A stretch of DNA of 23,710 nt from Candidatus Heimdallarchaeota archaeon (GTDB lineage Archaea; Asgardarchaeota; Heimdallarchaeia; Heimdallarchaeales; Heimdallarchaeaceae). Location of the stretch: NCBI GenBank assembly GCA_030668875.1, contig DAOVER010000044.1, forward strand, positions 1 to 23,710, given 5' to 3'. The notes beneath the pieces were generated by a model. That model saw nothing but the letters and a program-made list of their open reading frames with translations, did no database searches and was not told the DNA's origin. Shown piece after piece: positions 9,031 through 18,695 of the stretch; position 1 is the stretch's first letter, and each line of letters begins with the position of its first letter. The translations under genes and the position numbers were made by a program.

Positions 9031-9615
9031 TTATACTTCTAATTTTGACTTGAAATCAACATTTGCATATTTTATGATTTTAGTTAAATCTTCGATTATA
9101 TCATCATCAAGAGAAACGCCTGGATAATTAGAAAGGAGTTTGTTGACAGTTTCATTTGCTCTCTCTCCAATGGTTTTTCTTCCTTTACTTATCCATTCTT
9201 CATTTGTGGAACGATCTATAATTTTGCTTGGAATATATTGTTCTTCTCTGAACCATTTCAGTGTATGATCATGAGATAAAAGATGTGTCTTCTCTTCCAT
9301 ATCCTTAATCAAGTTTTTAGCAATGGGATCATCTCTTTGAATAATTCCTTTAACAAATTTATGTGTCATTCCGCAGATTTCATTATCTATGACAAGTTTC
9401 TGGATACTTTGTGTTGTTTCAAAATCCATCATTCCTGCTCCTGAGATCATATTAACACCCTTTATACCAGCTAACAAAGTTCCCATGCCAGTTTCAAAAC
9501 CAGTTTGCATATCGAGGATCTTAGCATCTGACATGCCAAGATATGCATGGGTTGGAAGATTGAGATATTTCCCAATTTCCACATAACCTAAATCAAGTAT
9601 CATTGTGTCTATTGA
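9031..9615 (-). pseudogene. mttB: 3' fragment of a trimethylamine-methyltransferase (MttB) family gene
   Basis: 143 of 190 aa identical (hand count) to the last 190 aa of 17232..18695, with no indels. Homology extends upstream to SIDT (paralog SVDT) at 9615, and an in-frame TGA lies two codons further upstream. Confidence 0.9.
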
Positions 9616-9737
9616 AAATCAACAATAGGATTACACTATTCAAAACAGGTCGAGAAAGTAAGTGTGTTAATTATCTTTTGCTTGATTCCAGAGGTGACCC
9701 TATTGATGTTATTGATTCAAAACCAACTTCTATAGAA

Positions 9738-11111
9738 TTAGTCTGGCGTAAGTTCAAATATACTTTCTGAATAAATAGCTCTTTCTCTTGATGCTTTTCT
9801 CGTAACTGGTCGAATATCTTGATGTTGAAGTGTATACCCAGATTTTCTGATAATTTCTGGATATAGCTTATATTTATCATTTGCAACAAAGAATACTGAT
9901 GCATCGTTTTTCAAGTATTTTTTGAAATTTTTGAGAACTTTGATAATTAAATCCTGATATTCCTTTTGCGAGTTTTTACTTGTCCCTTTTCTTGCTGGTC
10001 CGATTTCTTTTACCTCATTCCATTCTAAATCAAAAATATCGTACGCATATTTATGCTGTTCATGATAATCTATTATACCTACATATGGTGGAGATGTAAT
10101 TATACCATCTATTTCAGGATAAAAGTCCAGTTCATTTTCCAATACTATGTTTGTTGAATCACCTTTTAGTACAATTGTATCTTTTTCAGACCGTAAACTA
10201 TCAAATTCTTTCAATCGCTTAATAGTGTCTTTTGTATATCTTCTTAGATGGGATAATGATGTTTGTACTGGCGAGCAAATTTTTCCCTTATGCTTATGGC
10301 AATAATAAGGTTCTCTAACTGGTTGAGTTGGACGTGTCAATTCAAAGTGAAAAATTAAACGAGATGAGCGAGCAGCTCTGCTCAAAATCACCTTCAATAA
10401 ATCCTGATACAAATAATTTGGAATTAAAGATTTATAGAAACTAATTTCCTTAATAGTTGTTTTGGCAAACCATGTGTTTAAATAATTAGATTCTAGAAGA
10501 GTAAATTCTTTATTTTCTTTCTCTTGTGTTTTTGTGTTTATAAAATCCAGTAAGTTTTTTTGGTTTTTATCAAAAAACATTTCTACTTTATGTAATATAT
10601 CCTTTAACTCAAACTCAACTTTCTTCAAGTCATATTTTTGTGTTTTAGCTCTAGATATTATGCAATTAAATTCTGAGATATCAACACCAATTGAATTAGC
10701 TCCAAAGATGTTAGCTTCAATTAAAGTTGTACCTGATCCAACGAAGGGATCTAAGATTGTTTGTTCAGGAGAAAATTTCTTCCTCAAATAATATTCAACA
10801 AGTTGAGGGATATATTTTCCCAAATATGGATGCAATCTATGGACGTGTTTTGTTCTCATAGTTTCTGATAAATCAAAAAATGCAAGTTCTTCATTCATTC
10901 CTTGAAATTGATTCCTAATCTCTATTTTTTCAGATTCTAATTTTTGAAAATAGGTTTCTAATTCTACACGGTTTAATAATTTACCTTTCTTAGTTTTTAT
11001 TACATTAATAATTCTATTATATTGAATCAAATAATTGATATTGCTTTTGCTTTTGTTATACAGTAATGCTGCTTCTTCTACAGTAAGATATTCTTCAGAA
11101 TCATTATTCAT
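9738..11111 (-). CDS. Amino-(probably N4-cytosine) DNA methyltransferase, alpha-type motif order, with N-terminal HTH
   Basis: Motif X HRLHPYLGKYIP, motif I LDPFVGSGTT and motif IV IITSPPY. The N-terminal LTVEEAALLYNKSKSNINYLI is an excisionase/HTH_17-like helix-turn-helix. Confidence 0.92.
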   Translation of the reverse strand: MNNDSEEYLTVEEAALLYNKSKSNINYLIQYNRIINVIKTKKGKLLNRVELETYFQKLESEKIEIRNQFQGMNEELAFFDLSETMRTKHVHRLHPYLGKYIPQLVEYYLRKKFSPEQTILDPFVGSGTTLIEANIFGANSIGVDISEFNCIISRAKTQKYDLKKVEFELKDILHKVEMFFDKNQKNLLDFINTKTQEKENKEFTLLESNYLNTWFAKTTIKEISFYKSLIPNYLYQDLLKVILSRAARSSRLIFHFELTRPTQPVREPYYCHKHKGKICSPVQTSLSHLRRYTKDTIKRLKEFDSLRSEKDTIVLKGDSTNIVLENELDFYPEIDGIITSPPYVGIIDYHEQHKYAYDIFDLEWNEVKEIGPARKGTSKNSQKEYQDLIIKVLKNFKKYLKNDASVFFVANDKYKLYPEIIRKSGYTLQHQDIRPVTRKASRERAIYSESIFELTPD

Positions 11112-17100: not shown

Positions 17101-17206
17101 TACTGTTAGCAATAAGTTCATGCAAATTGCCTTATATTCAGATGAAAATCCTTGGTTAAATTGGGCTGGAGAACTCGCCAAAGAATTAAAGAAATTGACA
17201 ATATAG
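14138..17206 (+). CDS. Large hypothetical protein (1022 aa) with a candidate PD-(D/E)xK nuclease motif
   Basis: Uninterrupted 3 kb ORF. GQGYDLL(D247)...PVELKW(E269/K271) resembles GYD...IEVK DUF3883/NOV-C-type nuclease cores. No signal peptide or TM helix evident. Start uncertain (ATG 14138, or GTG 14147). Confidence 0.8.
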   Translation: MLKVIIIETSKGEIESTIKKAIDENHEEIIANIQEELVNIEQVKNQITKILKRHKMLYLSHLTWLQLIELETSLEFQKHNNEPLKQLGQIDNSATMLKNDVQMNIVPGEYSNKLSSFAEKGTIDGTGFNIFSHELLEMLKISENSSFDEFIYSLKITNKTDTLSNKVLSKIAKPYFSKLISNFENNIALTSTEKEHLSEFIAYLASSSEISSNSDHPSLSRISEYLGTSNLVCGLNYVSFGSGQGYDLLNITVEDGTGFRRINTFNPVELKWRTRNSRDWLIPSNIKRQMTSSFRESIKKLYSVDNLPVGAYKVSKKGVLEFIPNTGFGMYTTFGRGNDGITKLDKFNEQLNELARIWEKCNVGSIFPLHELVPNSNAKTLQESLINAVREQCYLEGLIENGFILDYKGDLNNYKHVEYCPKRSHNFKFNSNNGTVSRMLSNEDFKVFADDKPKFIEPFNLYVSKKTDETIIVDIYYSFNLSKDIAFITSLDLKPDDYKIFISNSNKIKGFILTSDNKIVCTEKYYSKHKQDLIAEIKTRFANSIRDEKKLVKWNGIVTDDFTYETDLAFFTANPQQLSKTKNTYHFHPTLNKSKGEAHILGLDSVFYFTFRTGNTAKDAKMQNSEWFRTTYKKFTNRFLKTDEPIIIEDIFGDADKYAKSYFEGYGEMAIRTFFTDGSYSFKNKLIAQKLINKNLEKYSPLSGPVFEINNLLRKNDVFNESYLLFGGDTRNKGHTTVDGTFTTSKESGYRRIDRMNLIRADWFDTKTFVRKDTVPCFIILIKKLQNDKQSKKVFTLKGQTDLYRLENSGKYLEYVIKRDQANYFVSIAKKEDKYTYFLFQKNARNEKTLEIIRNQLLDAPLLIKKGKSRINQMYSDWLKRLNNARKIQTNPHIKICLNENEAGWLLVKLGMNVTKVNDDLFKKFKMWYVEESLTIRKQIWNESEDGKLTKKQFYENFSFGLIPKGSFAGRTRTIYEVNSKEMQNFINTVSNKFMQIALYSDENPWLNWAGELAKELKKLTI

Positions 17207-17231
17207 AGATACTTAGACAAGCAATTAGTAC

Positions 17232-18695
17232 TTACAAATCCAATAATTTGTGAAAATCTATTTCTTCATACTTCATTATATCTACCAGATCTTCAATATT
17301 ATCTTTTTCAAGGGATGCTCCAGGATATTTAGAAAGTAATTTTTCTACTCTTTCTTTTGTTCTTTGACCAGCAGATTTTCTCCCCTTGTTTATCCATTCT
17401 TCATTTGTTGATCGATCAACAACAGTACTTGGCAAATAAAGTTCTTCTCTGAACCACTTCAGTGTATGGTCGTGTGACAATAAATGTGTTTTCTTATCAA
17501 ATTCCTTGAGTAAATTCTTTGCTATTGGTTCATCTCTTTGTGTGATTCCTTTAACGAATTTATAGGTCATTCCTGCGATTTCATTATCGATTACCACTTT
17601 TTGAATACTTTGTGTTGATTCAAAGTTCATCATTCCTGCACCAGAAATCATATTAACACCCTTTACACCAGCCAAAAGAGATCCCATTCCTGTTTCAAAT
17701 CCTGCTTGACTATCTAAAATTTTAGCATCTGACATTCCTAGATATGCATGTGTAGGTAAATTGAGATATTTGCCAATTTCTACATACCCTAAATCTAAGA
17801 GAATTGTATCAACCGAAGCTAAGTACATTGTCCCTTTTCTCATATCAAATGCCGCTGGTGAACCACCCCAAATTACTGGAGCACCAGGAGATACAATCTG
17901 AGTAATTACCAATCCTGCTAATGTTTCTGCTGCATGTTGAACGATCGAACCAAGTATAGTTACTGGAGCAGTTGCACCAGTCATCGGCATAGAAACAAAC
18001 TCAGAGGGGATACCATATTTTGCACAATCAATTATGCTCTGACATGTTAAATCACTCCATTTGAGTGGTGGAGATGGACACGCATCAAATATCGCCAAGG
18101 GTTTCCTCCTTAATTCATCCTCACTTCCTCTTACAGCTACAAGCATATCCTTCATAACTTCGAAAGATTCCTTGACGAATGTTCCTGTTACTATTGGTTT
18201 CTTTGAGTAAATCAATGTGATTAATAACCTATACCTATCACTAATTTTTTCAGGAACATCTGAACAAGCTATAGCCGTACTTTGTGCGTGAATGTGTTCT
18301 AGTTGGTCAACAACCTTGGTAAAATCAACGAAATCTTTTGTAACTGCTGTTCTAATCTTGTTTGTTTCTCTATCAAGTACATTTAGTGCTGCTGAACCAG
18401 GATCAAAACAAATATTATCTCCACCGAGTTCTGATACTAAATCTCCTTCTCGATTGTACAGAGAAATTGATTGAGGTGCTGTTTTAAGAGATTTCTTTAC
18501 CAAGTCTCTTGGGATGAAAGCTTTCTGAGTCTCTGTATCTACATTGACACCTGCATTCTGCAATATTTCTACAGCTTCATTGTTTTCTACAAAAAACCCT
18601 ATTTCTTCTAAAATTTCCATTGCTTCAGAAACAACTTTCTCTTTCAGATCTTCCTCAAGAATCTTGATGCACGGTCTCATATTTTTGTCACTCAA
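17232..18695 (-). CDS. mttB: Trimethylamine methyltransferase (MttB) superfamily, non-pyrrolysine type
   Basis: SPPLKW, PMTGATAPVTILGS, AETLAG, PGAPVIWG, FDMRKG, SDAKILDSQAGFE, GAGMM and VIDNEI. No in-frame amber codon. TTG start. Confidence 0.93.
   Translation of the reverse strand: MSDKNMRPCIKILEEDLKEKVVSEAMEILEEIGFFVENNEAVEILQNAGVNVDTETQKAFIPRDLVKKSLKTAPQSISLYNREGDLVSELGGDNICFDPGSAALNVLDRETNKIRTAVTKDFVDFTKVVDQLEHIHAQSTAIACSDVPEKISDRYRLLITLIYSKKPIVTGTFVKESFEVMKDMLVAVRGSEDELRRKPLAIFDACPSPPLKWSDLTCQSIIDCAKYGIPSEFVSMPMTGATAPVTILGSIVQHAAETLAGLVITQIVSPGAPVIWGGSPAAFDMRKGTMYLASVDTILLDLGYVEIGKYLNLPTHAYLGMSDAKILDSQAGFETGMGSLLAGVKGVNMISGAGMMNFESTQSIQKVVIDNEIAGMTYKFVKGITQRDEPIAKNLLKEFDKKTHLLSHDHTLKWFREELYLPSTVVDRSTNEEWINKGRKSAGQRTKERVEKLLSKYPGASLEKDNIEDLVDIMKYEEIDFHKLLDL

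What the first reader, a model, noticed from the sequence alone, without database searches (positions are those of the whole stretch)
9031..17816. 7.6 kb defence island between an intact mttB and a colinear, diverged copy of its last 585 nt
Seen: 9031-9615 and 17232-17816 are the same length with no indels, are 75% identical in aa, and differ by many synonymous changes. The fragment's homology ends abruptly at 9615 next to a small inverted repeat (TTGA-AAA-TCAA, 9612-9622). Established: some integrative elements insert into protein-coding genes and carry a replacement 3' end that restores the target. Inference: mttB is an integration or recombination hotspot. The island either supplied a foreign 3' end (making the intact gene a chimera) or arrived with a foreign mttB cluster by homologous recombination. 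No integrase or identical att core is visible, so the mechanism is unexplained.
Basis: partly seen in the sequence, partly recalled or inferred. Interest (0 to 1): 0.7.

Follow-up and report, generated by a model that had tools for sequence, protein, structure and literature searches.

The report
Integrase-free defence slot behind archaeal mttB
In a marine-sediment (probably Asgard) archaeon, 7.6 kb of anti-virus genes sits between a working methyltransferase gene and the displaced original tail of that gene. The same layout with different cargo recurs in relatives and appears to be moved by ordinary host recombination, not by a self-integrating element.

Summary
Window 9031-9615 and 17232-17816 are collinear with no indels, 74.9% identical in nt and 75.4% in aa. 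Contigs from other samples bridge both junctions.

The complete mttB is a mosaic, but the seam lies near codon 100-160, not codon 294. From there through the stop and into orf1022 it is nearly identical to two sister species (dS 0.11-0.13, against a background of 0.33-1.03). The fragment is the resident 3' end. Against G010 its dS is 0.56, near the 0.23-0.50 background, and homology runs on into NosD.

Two more genomes share the architecture (mttB, orf1022, cargo, then a fragment starting within about 4 codons of Ser294). One is in another genus. A fourth genome shows the mttB/orf1022/cargo side only. Cargo differs each time: two type II RM variants, type I RM, and an OLD/Gabija-like nuclease.

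I found no integrase, att core or terminal repeats.

Best reading: a recombination-driven defence hotspot built by 3'-end displacement, as at rhs/T6SS loci.

Still open: why the truncation point is conserved, and why the fragments look undecayed.

This scan has logged similar repeat-flanked, integrase-free defence blocks in bacteria. This one is a new variant of that kind, in an archaeon.

The parts
7089..8978 (-). NosD-like beta-helix gene, the native downstream neighbour of mttB (empty-site flank)
   Evidence: Pfam Beta_helix 4e-43 and NosD 6e-38. It lies directly after a whole mttB in six relatives. Homology to G010 runs without a break from the fragment into this gene (8307-9616).
9031..9615 (-). 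Orphan 3' end of mttB (codons 294-487 plus stop; open 190-aa ORF 9031-9603). This is the resident, displaced end.
   Evidence: It is 91.8% aa and 89% nt identical to the G010 mttB C-terminus, with dS 0.56 against a background of 0.23-0.50. It is sister to G010 (97/93) and, for codons 425-486, groups with G002+G010 (99/97). None of 88 residues invariant in 21 full genes is changed.
9616..9737 (.). Junction and spacer between the fragment and the cargo; no homology to mttB
   Evidence: Similarity to the island-side sequence of the two other junctions is not above chance (p 0.16-0.35). No att-like repeat found.
9738..11111 (-). Type II N6/N4 DNA methyltransferase
   Evidence: Pfam N6_N4_Mtase 2.8e-18; PADLOC MTase_II 1.9e-116. 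75% aa to the copy in scaffold L084, where the module is inverted.
11104..11484 (-). orf126, unknown; travels with the methyltransferase
   Evidence: No family hit. 76% aa to the L084 copy next to the MTase.
11634..12866 (-). orf410 (true start probably near 12785): widespread uncharacterised family with a PD-(D/E)xK-like motif and a Cys cluster; probably a second nuclease
   Evidence: 413+ homologs of about 380 aa, none named. Invariant P220-P221-D222 ... E236-V-G ... K241 and eight Cys. Model pLDDT 76 with no convincing PDB match. Absent from L084.
12823..13674 (-). Type II restriction endonuclease, TdeIII/HinfI family
   Evidence: Pfam RE_TdeIII 4.2e-26; 74% aa to the L084 copy.
13748..13969 (+). 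orf73, MazE/AbrB-like small DNA-binding protein upstream of orf1022
   Evidence: Pfam MazE_antitoxin 2.5e-4, below the curated cut-off. Conserved at the same place in L084.
14138..17206 (+). orf1022, a lineage-restricted orphan convergent with mttB; the constant member of the slot
   Evidence: No Pfam, NCBIfam or PADLOC hit. Only 12 hits in 1.84 billion representatives. It lies next to mttB in G016 (remnant), G008, L084, L089, G040 and G041. G000 vs L084 dS is 0.20, while every neighbour is at 1.2 or more. Deletion variants exist. The fold prediction failed (pLDDT 38).
17232..18340 (-). Imported part of the complete mttB (about codon 120 to the stop)
   Evidence: 94-99% nt identical to G016, and to G002 up to codon ~430. 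dS is 0.11-0.13 against a background of 0.33-1.03. Against G010, dS is 1.5-1.7. In the trees this part does not group with G010 and joins the alleles of genus g10.
18341..18695 (-). Resident 5' part of mttB (codons 1 to about 100-120)
   Evidence: The tree of codons 6-110 gives the clade (G010,(G002,(G000,G016))) with 100/99 support. dS to G016 is 0.45, the background level.

Best explanation
This is an integrase-free slot for defence genes that host homologous recombination maintains and reshuffles. One border is the working mttB. The other is an orphan copy of mttB's last 194 codons.

In this genome the orphan is the cell's own original 3' end, still attached to its original neighbour NosD. 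The working gene is a mosaic. Roughly its first 100-120 codons are resident. The rest, together with the adjacent orphan gene orf1022, came in from a related lineage.

The mechanism I propose is 3'-end displacement. Incoming DNA pairs with the resident gene in its conserved 5'/central part, giving a homologous crossover. Its far end is then joined downstream. The first time this was illegitimate, creating the truncation at about codon 290-294. Later joins occurred by a second homologous crossover inside the pre-existing orphan or beyond it.

The gene therefore stays whole while cargo is added. Cargo (type II RM here) is exchanged between species in the same way. Recombination between the two direct mttB copies can delete the island cleanly.

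Shown: the mosaic, the native status of the fragment, the variable cargo, the lack of detectable recombinase genes or att sites, and the reality of the junctions.

Inferred: the order of events, the illegitimate first join, and use of the fragment as a homology arm.
For: 1. dS discontinuities.
- G000 vs G016: 0.11 over mttB codons 121-486, against 0.45 for codons 6-110 and 0.33-0.76 in nine flanking genes.
- G000 vs G002: 0.13 over codons 121-420, against a background of 0.40-1.03.
- The high-identity tract to G016 continues into the orf1022 remnant (16376-17206, 95-96% nt).

2. The fragment is native. dS to G010 is 0.56, near the 0.23-0.50 background, while the complete gene against G010 gives 1.3-1.7. 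Segment trees place the fragment with G010/G002 and the complete gene elsewhere.

3. There is no change of affinity at codon 294 in the complete gene.

4. G002 has the empty site. Its mttB switches from 'complete-copy type' to 'fragment type' between codons 430 and 437. 34 of 36 informative sites before the switch match the complete copy; about 47 of about 60 after it match the fragment. This is the product expected from a deletion between the repeats or from a conversion patch.

5. The same slot holds different cargo:
- L084/G009 species: type II RM with an inverted MTase module and two REases.
- G016: HsdR/HsdM.
- G040 (another genus): an OLD/GajA-like ATPase-TOPRIM protein.

6. No integrase, transposase, tRNA, att core or terminal inverted repeats in the island.

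7. The junctions are bridged by contigs from several samples and two studies.
Against: - The truncation point is the same to within about 4 codons in three genomes of two genera. A sloppy one-off join does not predict this unless the junction is inherited and spread. I could not show homology on the island side of the junction (p 0.16-0.35).
- The fragments do not form one clade (AU p 2e-6). A single origin therefore requires later replacement of their bodies by recombination, which is assumed, not shown.
- The fragments look as conserved as working genes: 0-2 of 88 invariant residues changed, omega 0.06-0.13. That also fits selection on the fragment.
- orf410, orf126 and orf1022 have no assigned function, so an unrecognised recombinase is not strictly excluded.
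- All relatives are MAGs. The far side of the slot is unassembled in G016, G008 and G009.
Confidence: 0.68

Rival explanations
1. A site-specific integrative element of the e14/icd type. The element carries its own mttB 3' end, integrates at a fixed site near codon 294, restores the gene and displaces the native end. The integrase has since been lost or is one of the unknown ORFs.
For: The topology matches icd/e14/icdC (PMC13626634). The truncation point is conserved within about 4 codons in three genomes of two genera. Three island ORFs have no assigned function.
Against: No integrase or recombinase domain in any of the four cargo versions examined. No identical core or terminal repeats. The complete gene has no seam at codon 294; its seams lie near codon 100-160 here and, by tree placement, near codon 420 in L084. 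G002 lacks the island yet carries the 'element-type' sequence across codon 294. orf410 carries a nuclease-type motif, not a recombinase motif. Distant orf1022 homologs sit beside ribosomal-protein genes, not mttB.
Confidence: 0.08
2. An old tandem duplication of mttB, predating the split of the two genera. The 5' part of the downstream copy was then deleted and cargo inserted between the copies. The 190-aa remnant is kept by selection, as a small protein or as a required sequence, and is inherited mostly vertically, with losses.
For: The same truncation point and an open 190-aa ORF starting at the same Met occur in G000, L084 and G040. Fragments keep 86-88 of 88 invariant residues and show omega 0.06-0.13, even the very divergent G040 fragment. 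Both genus-g10 genomes have orf1022 next to mttB.
Against: No relative with two full copies was found in 23 genus-g1 and 2 genus-g10 genomes; G007 is ambiguous. Fragment monophyly is rejected (AU p 2e-6). The G000 fragment sits at background dS from G010's single-copy gene and is collinear with it into NosD. Changes private to the fragments are about 1:1 synonymous:nonsynonymous (4:4, 8:10), against 4:1, 6:2 and 4:0 on working branches. That suggests relaxed constraint, but the counts are small.
Confidence: 0.15
3. An assembly artefact: a chimeric contig that joins two strains or species of a metagenome.
For: The genome is a MAG with 4.4% contamination. In run X3 the unitigs break at 9588/9617.
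Against: Zero-difference contigs bridge 9615 in X1 and X4, and a contig from another study (X5) bridges it too. The right junction is also bridged. The same layout was assembled independently in L084 and in G040 on a 129-kb contig.
Confidence: 0.01

Closest known systems
C-terminal (3'-end) displacement at rhs, CDI and T6SS effector loci, proposed to work by homology-facilitated illegitimate recombination (Jackson 2009, as cited in PMC5361080; HFIR defined in PMC3240628)
   Same: A conserved 5' part of a gene serves as the homologous anchor. A new 3' end plus linked genes comes in. The old 3' end survives downstream as an orphan, in the same orientation. No dedicated recombinase is involved.
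   Different: The gene here is a metabolic methyltransferase, not a polymorphic toxin. The new and old ends are functional equivalents (75% identical), not alternative toxin domains. The passengers are defence genes, not immunity genes. There is one orphan with a conserved truncation point rather than an array. The host is an archaeon.
Core-gene-flanked defence hotspots and 'minimal mobile elements' (cDHS1/2 of Pseudomonas aeruginosa, PMC10250203; Neisseria MMEs, PMC3787668)
   Same: A fixed chromosomal slot between conserved sequences holds different defence or accessory genes in close relatives. The cargo is exchanged by homologous recombination in the flanks.
   Different: Here one flank is a partial duplicate of the other, so the slot lies formally inside a gene. 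It can be deleted by recombination between its own borders.
Prophage e14 in icd with the icdC pseudogene (PMC13626634 and references there)
   Same: A complete gene, then an insert, then a diverged C-terminal fragment of the same gene. Loss of the insert yields a chimeric but working gene.
   Different: e14 has an integrase and a defined att site, and the seam is at the start of the duplication. None of these three features is met here.

Membership tests
Site-specific integrative element with 3'-end replacement (e14/icd type) | Integrase or other recombinase gene within the element | tested here: not met
   No recombinase family in any island ORF of G000, L084, G016 or G040 by Pfam, NCBIfam or PADLOC. 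Three ORFs remain unassigned.
Site-specific integrative element with 3'-end replacement (e14/icd type) | Identical att core at both borders | tested here: not met
   The repeat search found only the diverged mttB repeat. The borders are 75% identical with no longer identical block at the start of the repeat.
Site-specific integrative element with 3'-end replacement (e14/icd type) | Seam in the restored gene at the start of the duplicated segment | tested here: not met
   Identity to G016 and G002 is unbroken across codon 294. The seams lie near codon 100-160 and, in G002, at codons 430-437.
Recombination-driven hotspot / minimal mobile element | Different gene content at the same site in close relatives | tested here: met
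   Four cargo versions plus empty sites.
Recombination-driven hotspot / minimal mobile element | Recombination tracts in the flanking conserved sequence | tested here: met
   dS drops 4- to 7-fold within mttB. Segment trees are incongruent. orf1022 has dS 0.20 against 1.2 or more in its neighbours.
Recombination-driven hotspot / minimal mobile element | No mobility genes of its own | tested here: met
   As for the integrase row above. The TnpB/IS607-like element at 1963-4080 lies 5 kb outside the slot.
3'-end displacement (rhs-like) | The orphan 3' fragment downstream is the former resident end | tested here: met
   The fragment is at background dS from G010, is collinear into NosD, and is sister to G010/G002 in the trees.
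3'-end displacement (rhs-like) | Illegitimate join at the far end (microhomology, no site specificity) | tested here: inconclusive
   The join is abrupt. However, its position is shared by three genomes, and island-side homology could not be shown.
Type II restriction-modification system (cargo) | Methyltransferase plus cognate endonuclease as neighbours | tested here: met
   MTase_II 1.9e-116 and RE_TdeIII 4.2e-26. Specificity and activity were not tested.
Tandem paralogs with 5' deletion | Relatives with two full-length tandem copies | tested here: not met
   One match per genome in most of the 23 genus genomes. Second matches are contig-end pieces or the fragment. G007 has two different partial copies at contig ends (88.8% over 474 nt), so a second longer copy there is not excluded.

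The most novel reading that the evidence does not exclude
The orphan mttB tail is not just a scar. It may be a maintained part of a portable cassette: [mttB 3' part - orf1022 - cargo - junction - first codons of the fragment]. Because the fragment starts in the most conserved stretch of the C-terminal half, it would serve as a second homology arm. The cassette could then enter any genome with a plain mttB by an ordinary double crossover without breaking the gene, and leave again by recombination between the two copies. That would be integrase-free, reversible 'homing' of defence genes into a metabolic gene. It would explain three things: the same truncation point in two genera, fragments that always look freshly cut from the host's own gene, and the weakly 'complete-type' codons (Tyr-Leu/Phe) just upstream of Ser294 in the L084 and G040 fragments.
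Probability: 0.3. Interest if true: 0.75.

Novelty: new variant of a known kind. Interest (0 to 1): 0.55.

Why it matters
Little is known about how Asgard archaea gain and lose defence genes. Most described cases involve viruses, plasmids or integrase-bearing elements (for example PMC11529989).

This locus shows species of one genus, and a neighbouring genus, trading restriction systems and an orphan gene by plain homologous recombination around a metabolic gene. The clock-like evidence is clear: dS is 4-7 times lower inside the tract than in the flanks.

It gives a concrete marker for finding new archaeal defence genes: a complete mttB followed further on by an orphan mttB tail. orf1022, orf410 and the 660-aa gene of G040 are candidates.

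It also poses a testable question: can a partial gene duplicate act as a built-in homology arm?

For annotation, it warns that the 190-aa 'MttB' ORF is an orphan tail and that the complete gene is a mosaic.

Tried and rejected
- Structure of orf1022 from a 9-sequence alignment: pLDDT 38, unusable, so no fold search was made.
- ESM-Atlas look-ups of orf1022 and orf410: best scores 0.77 and 0.82, below the level that counts.
- orf410 model (pLDDT 76): no Foldseek PDB match at E<=0.001, and best VIA-align Z 5.2 on helical rows. Its fold is unassigned. The nuclease call rests on the sequence motif only.
- Homology of the island-side 45 nt at the three junctions: local alignment scores are not above shuffles or real-sequence controls. 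I dropped the claim that the junctions share flanking sequence.
I treat it as chance in AT-rich DNA.
- tRNA genes, att-like repeats and terminal inverted repeats: none.
- Rfam: only PYLIS_3 hits inside both mttB copies, reflecting coding-sequence homology. The gene has no in-frame TAG.
- Looking for an empty-site joint (fragment fused to the complete copy) in the laid contigs: none was listed. Contigs cannot show absence.
- Whether G016, G008 and G009 also keep a fragment: their assemblies stop inside the slot.
- No complex prediction was run; no protein-protein claim is made.

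
Full report
**1. Setting**

The window is a whole contig (C37) of a 3.2-Mb MAG, 92% complete and 4.4% contaminated.
- Runs that hold the stretch are marine-sediment metagenomes. Smaller shares occur in cold-seep and subsurface runs, which I did not lay.
My only own support is an actin-family gene on a relative's scaffold.
- Gene order in the region:

| Window position | Strand | Gene |
|---|---|---|
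| 4186-5931, 6010-7002 | - | hydrolase, amidohydrolase |
| 7089-8978 | - | NosD-like |
| 9031-9615 | - | mttB fragment |
| 9738-11111 | - | type II DNA methyltransferase |
| 11104-11484 | - | orf126 |
| 11634-12866 | - | orf410 |
| 12823-13674 | - | TdeIII/HinfI-family endonuclease |
| 13748-13969 | + | orf73, MazE/AbrB-like |
| 14138-17206 | + | orf1022 |
| 17232-18695 | - | complete mttB, no in-frame TAG |
| 18804-19856 | + | orf350 |
| 19870-22082 | - | MetH-activation domain, homocysteine S-methyltransferase, corrinoid protein |

**2. The observation**

- The two stretches are collinear with no gaps, 74.9% nt and 75.4% aa identical. Differences by codon position are 37/14/96.
- Homology stops dead at 9615/17816.
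- These are the only two MTTB matches in the genome.
- Contigs from other samples and from a second study bridge both borders of the island.
- The same layout was assembled independently twice elsewhere.
- The feature is real.

**3. The empty site**

- Across the genus the usual order is: corrinoid protein, S-methyltransferase, activation domain, a variable stretch, mttB, NosD and/or amidohydrolase.
- NosD lies directly after a whole mttB in G002, G010, G022, G020, G012 and G005.
- No genome shows two full tandem mttB genes.
- G007 has two different partial copies at contig ends, 88.8% identical over 474 nt, and stays unresolved.

**4. Which copy is native**

Background synonymous divergence (dS) in flanking genes, compared with the mttB segments:

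| G000 versus | Background dS | mttB segment | dS |
|---|---|---|---|
| G016 | 0.33-0.76 | complete, codons 121-486 | 0.11 |
| G016 | 0.33-0.76 | complete, codons 6-110 | 0.45 |
| G002 | 0.40-1.03 | complete, codons 121-420 | 0.13 |
| G010 | 0.23-0.50 (two outliers at 1.3-1.6) | fragment | 0.56 (omega 0.06) |
| G010 | 0.23-0.50 | complete gene | 1.3-1.7 |

- The fragment is 92% aa identical to the G010 C-terminus.
- Its homology to G010 continues into the NosD start (8307-9616).
- The high-identity tract to G016 runs on through the 25-nt spacer into the orf1022 remnant (95-96% nt).
- Segment trees agree:
  - Codons 6-110 give (G010,(G002,(G000,G016))) at 100/99.
  - For codons 121-420 the trio G000/G016/G002 is nearly identical and no longer groups with G010.
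  - For codons 293-420 the fragment is sister to G010 (97/93).
  - For codons 425-486 the fragment groups with G010 and G002 (99/97). The complete copy plus G016 sits on a long separate branch.
- With more taxa, the imported part joins the alleles of the neighbouring genus g10.
- Conclusion: the complete gene is a chimera with its seam near codon 100 (vs G016) to 140-160 (vs G002). It is not at codon 294, where identity is unbroken. The fragment is the displaced resident end.

**5. G002**

- G002 has the empty site.
- Its mttB follows the complete-copy type up to codon 430 (34 of 36 informative sites).
- From codon 437 it follows the fragment type (about 47 of about 60 sites).
- A deletion between the two repeats would leave exactly this product. 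A conversion patch would look the same.

**6. The layout recurs**

- **L084.** The only close homolog of orf1022 (87% aa) lies on a 39-kb ENA scaffold, L084. The scaffold is 99.5% identical to G009 and so belongs to another species of the genus. Its order is: amidohydrolase, 190-aa mttB fragment, orf126 and methyltransferase (module inverted), TdeIII-family endonuclease, a second HinfI-family endonuclease, orf73, orf1022, complete mttB, operon.
- **G040.** This genome belongs to genus g10. On a 129-kb contig the order is: operon, mttB, orf1022 (63% aa, one in-frame stop), an OLD/GajA-like ATPase-TOPRIM protein, a 660-aa unknown, and again a 190-aa mttB fragment.
- **G016.** The slot holds HsdR and HsdM next to an orf1022 remnant that lacks the equivalent of 14036-16375.
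- **Others.** G008, G041 and the NCBI contig L089 also have orf1022 convergent with mttB before their contigs end.
- In all three fragments, homology starts at Ser294 or up to four codons earlier.
- Only genera g1 and g10 of the family have this mttB.

**7. State of the fragments**

- They are not a clade (AU p 2e-6). Each groups with alleles of its own species group, and the G040 fragment sits on a long branch.
- They are as conserved as working genes. Of 88 residues invariant in 21 full genes they change 0, 1 and 2; leave-one-out values for full genes are 0-3. Pairwise omega is 0.06-0.13.
- Changes private to the fragments are about 1:1 synonymous:nonsynonymous (4:4, 8:10, 8:9). Working sister branches give 4:1, 6:2 and 4:0. 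This hints at relaxed constraint since truncation, but the counts are small.
- Together with the shared truncation point, this is the least explained part of the finding.
- Island-side sequences at the three junctions are not significantly alike.

**8. orf1022**

- It is a lineage-restricted orphan: 12 hits among 1.84 billion representatives. Full-length relatives at 33-35% identity sit at other places, beside ribosomal-protein and NDK genes.
- A motif of the type G-x-D ... E-L-K is conserved in its alignment. The fold prediction failed.
- Between G000 and L084 its dS is 0.20. Every neighbour is at 1.2 or more, including both mttB copies, the RM genes and the flanks.
- The tract ends about 35 nt inside the mttB 3' end (about 17268) and fades upstream of the start codon.
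- It is therefore exchanged on its own, recently, between species.
- Deletion variants exist in G016 and, as a 14287-to-17155 joint, in two runs.

**9. Mechanism**

- I found no integrase, transposase, tRNA, att core or terminal repeats.
- The data fit 3'-end displacement: a homologous crossover in the conserved part of mttB, plus a downstream join.
- This has been proposed for rhs and T6SS effector loci under the name homology-facilitated illegitimate recombination (PMC5361080, PMC3240628).
- It operates here at a site that otherwise behaves like a core-gene-flanked defence hotspot or minimal mobile element (PMC10250203, PMC3787668).
- The e14/icd/icdC case (PMC13626634) has the same topology, but three of its defining features were tested here and not met.
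- The shared truncation point suggests one founding event whose junction has since been passed on. Fragment bodies would then have been replaced by host sequence through crossovers in the highly conserved codons just after Ser294. That step is inference.

**10. Verdict**

- The kind is known, and this scan has logged similar repeat-flanked, integrase-free defence blocks in bacteria.
- The variant features are the archaeal host, the conservation of the layout across genera, and the undecayed fragments.

Noticed in passing
window 14138-17206 vs L084 8464-11532: orf1022 alone was exchanged recently between two species. Its dS is 0.20, against 1.2 or more for every neighbouring gene. The tract ends about 35 nt inside the mttB 3' end.
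   Followed up: yes
window 14036-16375 (G016) and 14288-17154 (runs X1, X3): Two different internal or whole-gene deletions of orf1022. One is in the sister species G016. The other is a minority joint in Logan contigs of the source study.
   Followed up: partly
window 7089-8978: The single NosD-like gene looks like a fusion of two tandem paralogs present in G010. Its 5' part matches G010 NosD#1 (8307-8978) and its 3' part matches NosD#2 (6957-8408, 86% nt).
   Followed up: no
window 1963-4080: The TnpB-like element has many diverged copies (72-82% nt) in all five relatives searched. Its last ~100 nt (3982-4080) occur alone at many more places (86-94% nt), like a solo end or a small non-coding derivative.
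   Followed up: no
window 18696-19869 and the equivalent gap in relatives: The stretch upstream of mttB also varies. It holds orf350 in G000, G016, G002, G013 and G004. In L084 it is a 3.2-kb block with a glycerol-3-P-dehydrogenase-like gene and a B12-binding gene; G009, G012, G008 and G011 have a gap of the same size whose genes I did not check. It is up to 7 kb in G003 and almost nothing in G010, G006 and G005.
   Followed up: no
window 11634-12866: orf410 belongs to a large unnamed family (413+ members of about 380 aa, 52-69% identical, one of them named from Candidatus Scalindua). It has invariant P-P-D ... E-V-G ... K and eight Cys. The model has pLDDT 76 and no PDB match.
   Followed up: partly
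window 13748-13969: A 73-aa MazE/AbrB-like ORF sits just upstream of orf1022 and is conserved in L084. It may be a regulator or antitoxin partner of orf1022.
   Followed up: partly
window 9435-9534 and 17636-17735: Rfam PYLIS_3 (the mttB pyrrolysine insertion element) scores above its gathering threshold in both copies. Yet this mttB has no in-frame TAG, so the hit probably reflects coding-sequence homology only.
   Followed up: no
G010:C25 (L034) corrinoid and MetH-activation genes: These two genes give dS 1.26 and 1.56 against G000, while their neighbours give 0.23-0.50. This is a further recombination tract in the operon.
   Followed up: no
G007:C173 and G007:C147 (L046, L045): Two different partial mttB sequences at contig ends: codons 6-416 linked to the operon and codons 259-487 linked to NosD, 88.8% identical over the overlap. 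This is either two strains or a second, longer copy.
   Followed up: partly
L111 6693-8675: A 660-aa gene with no Pfam or PADLOC hit lies next to the OLD/GajA-like gene in the G040 slot. It is a candidate partner of an unrecognised defence system.
   Followed up: no
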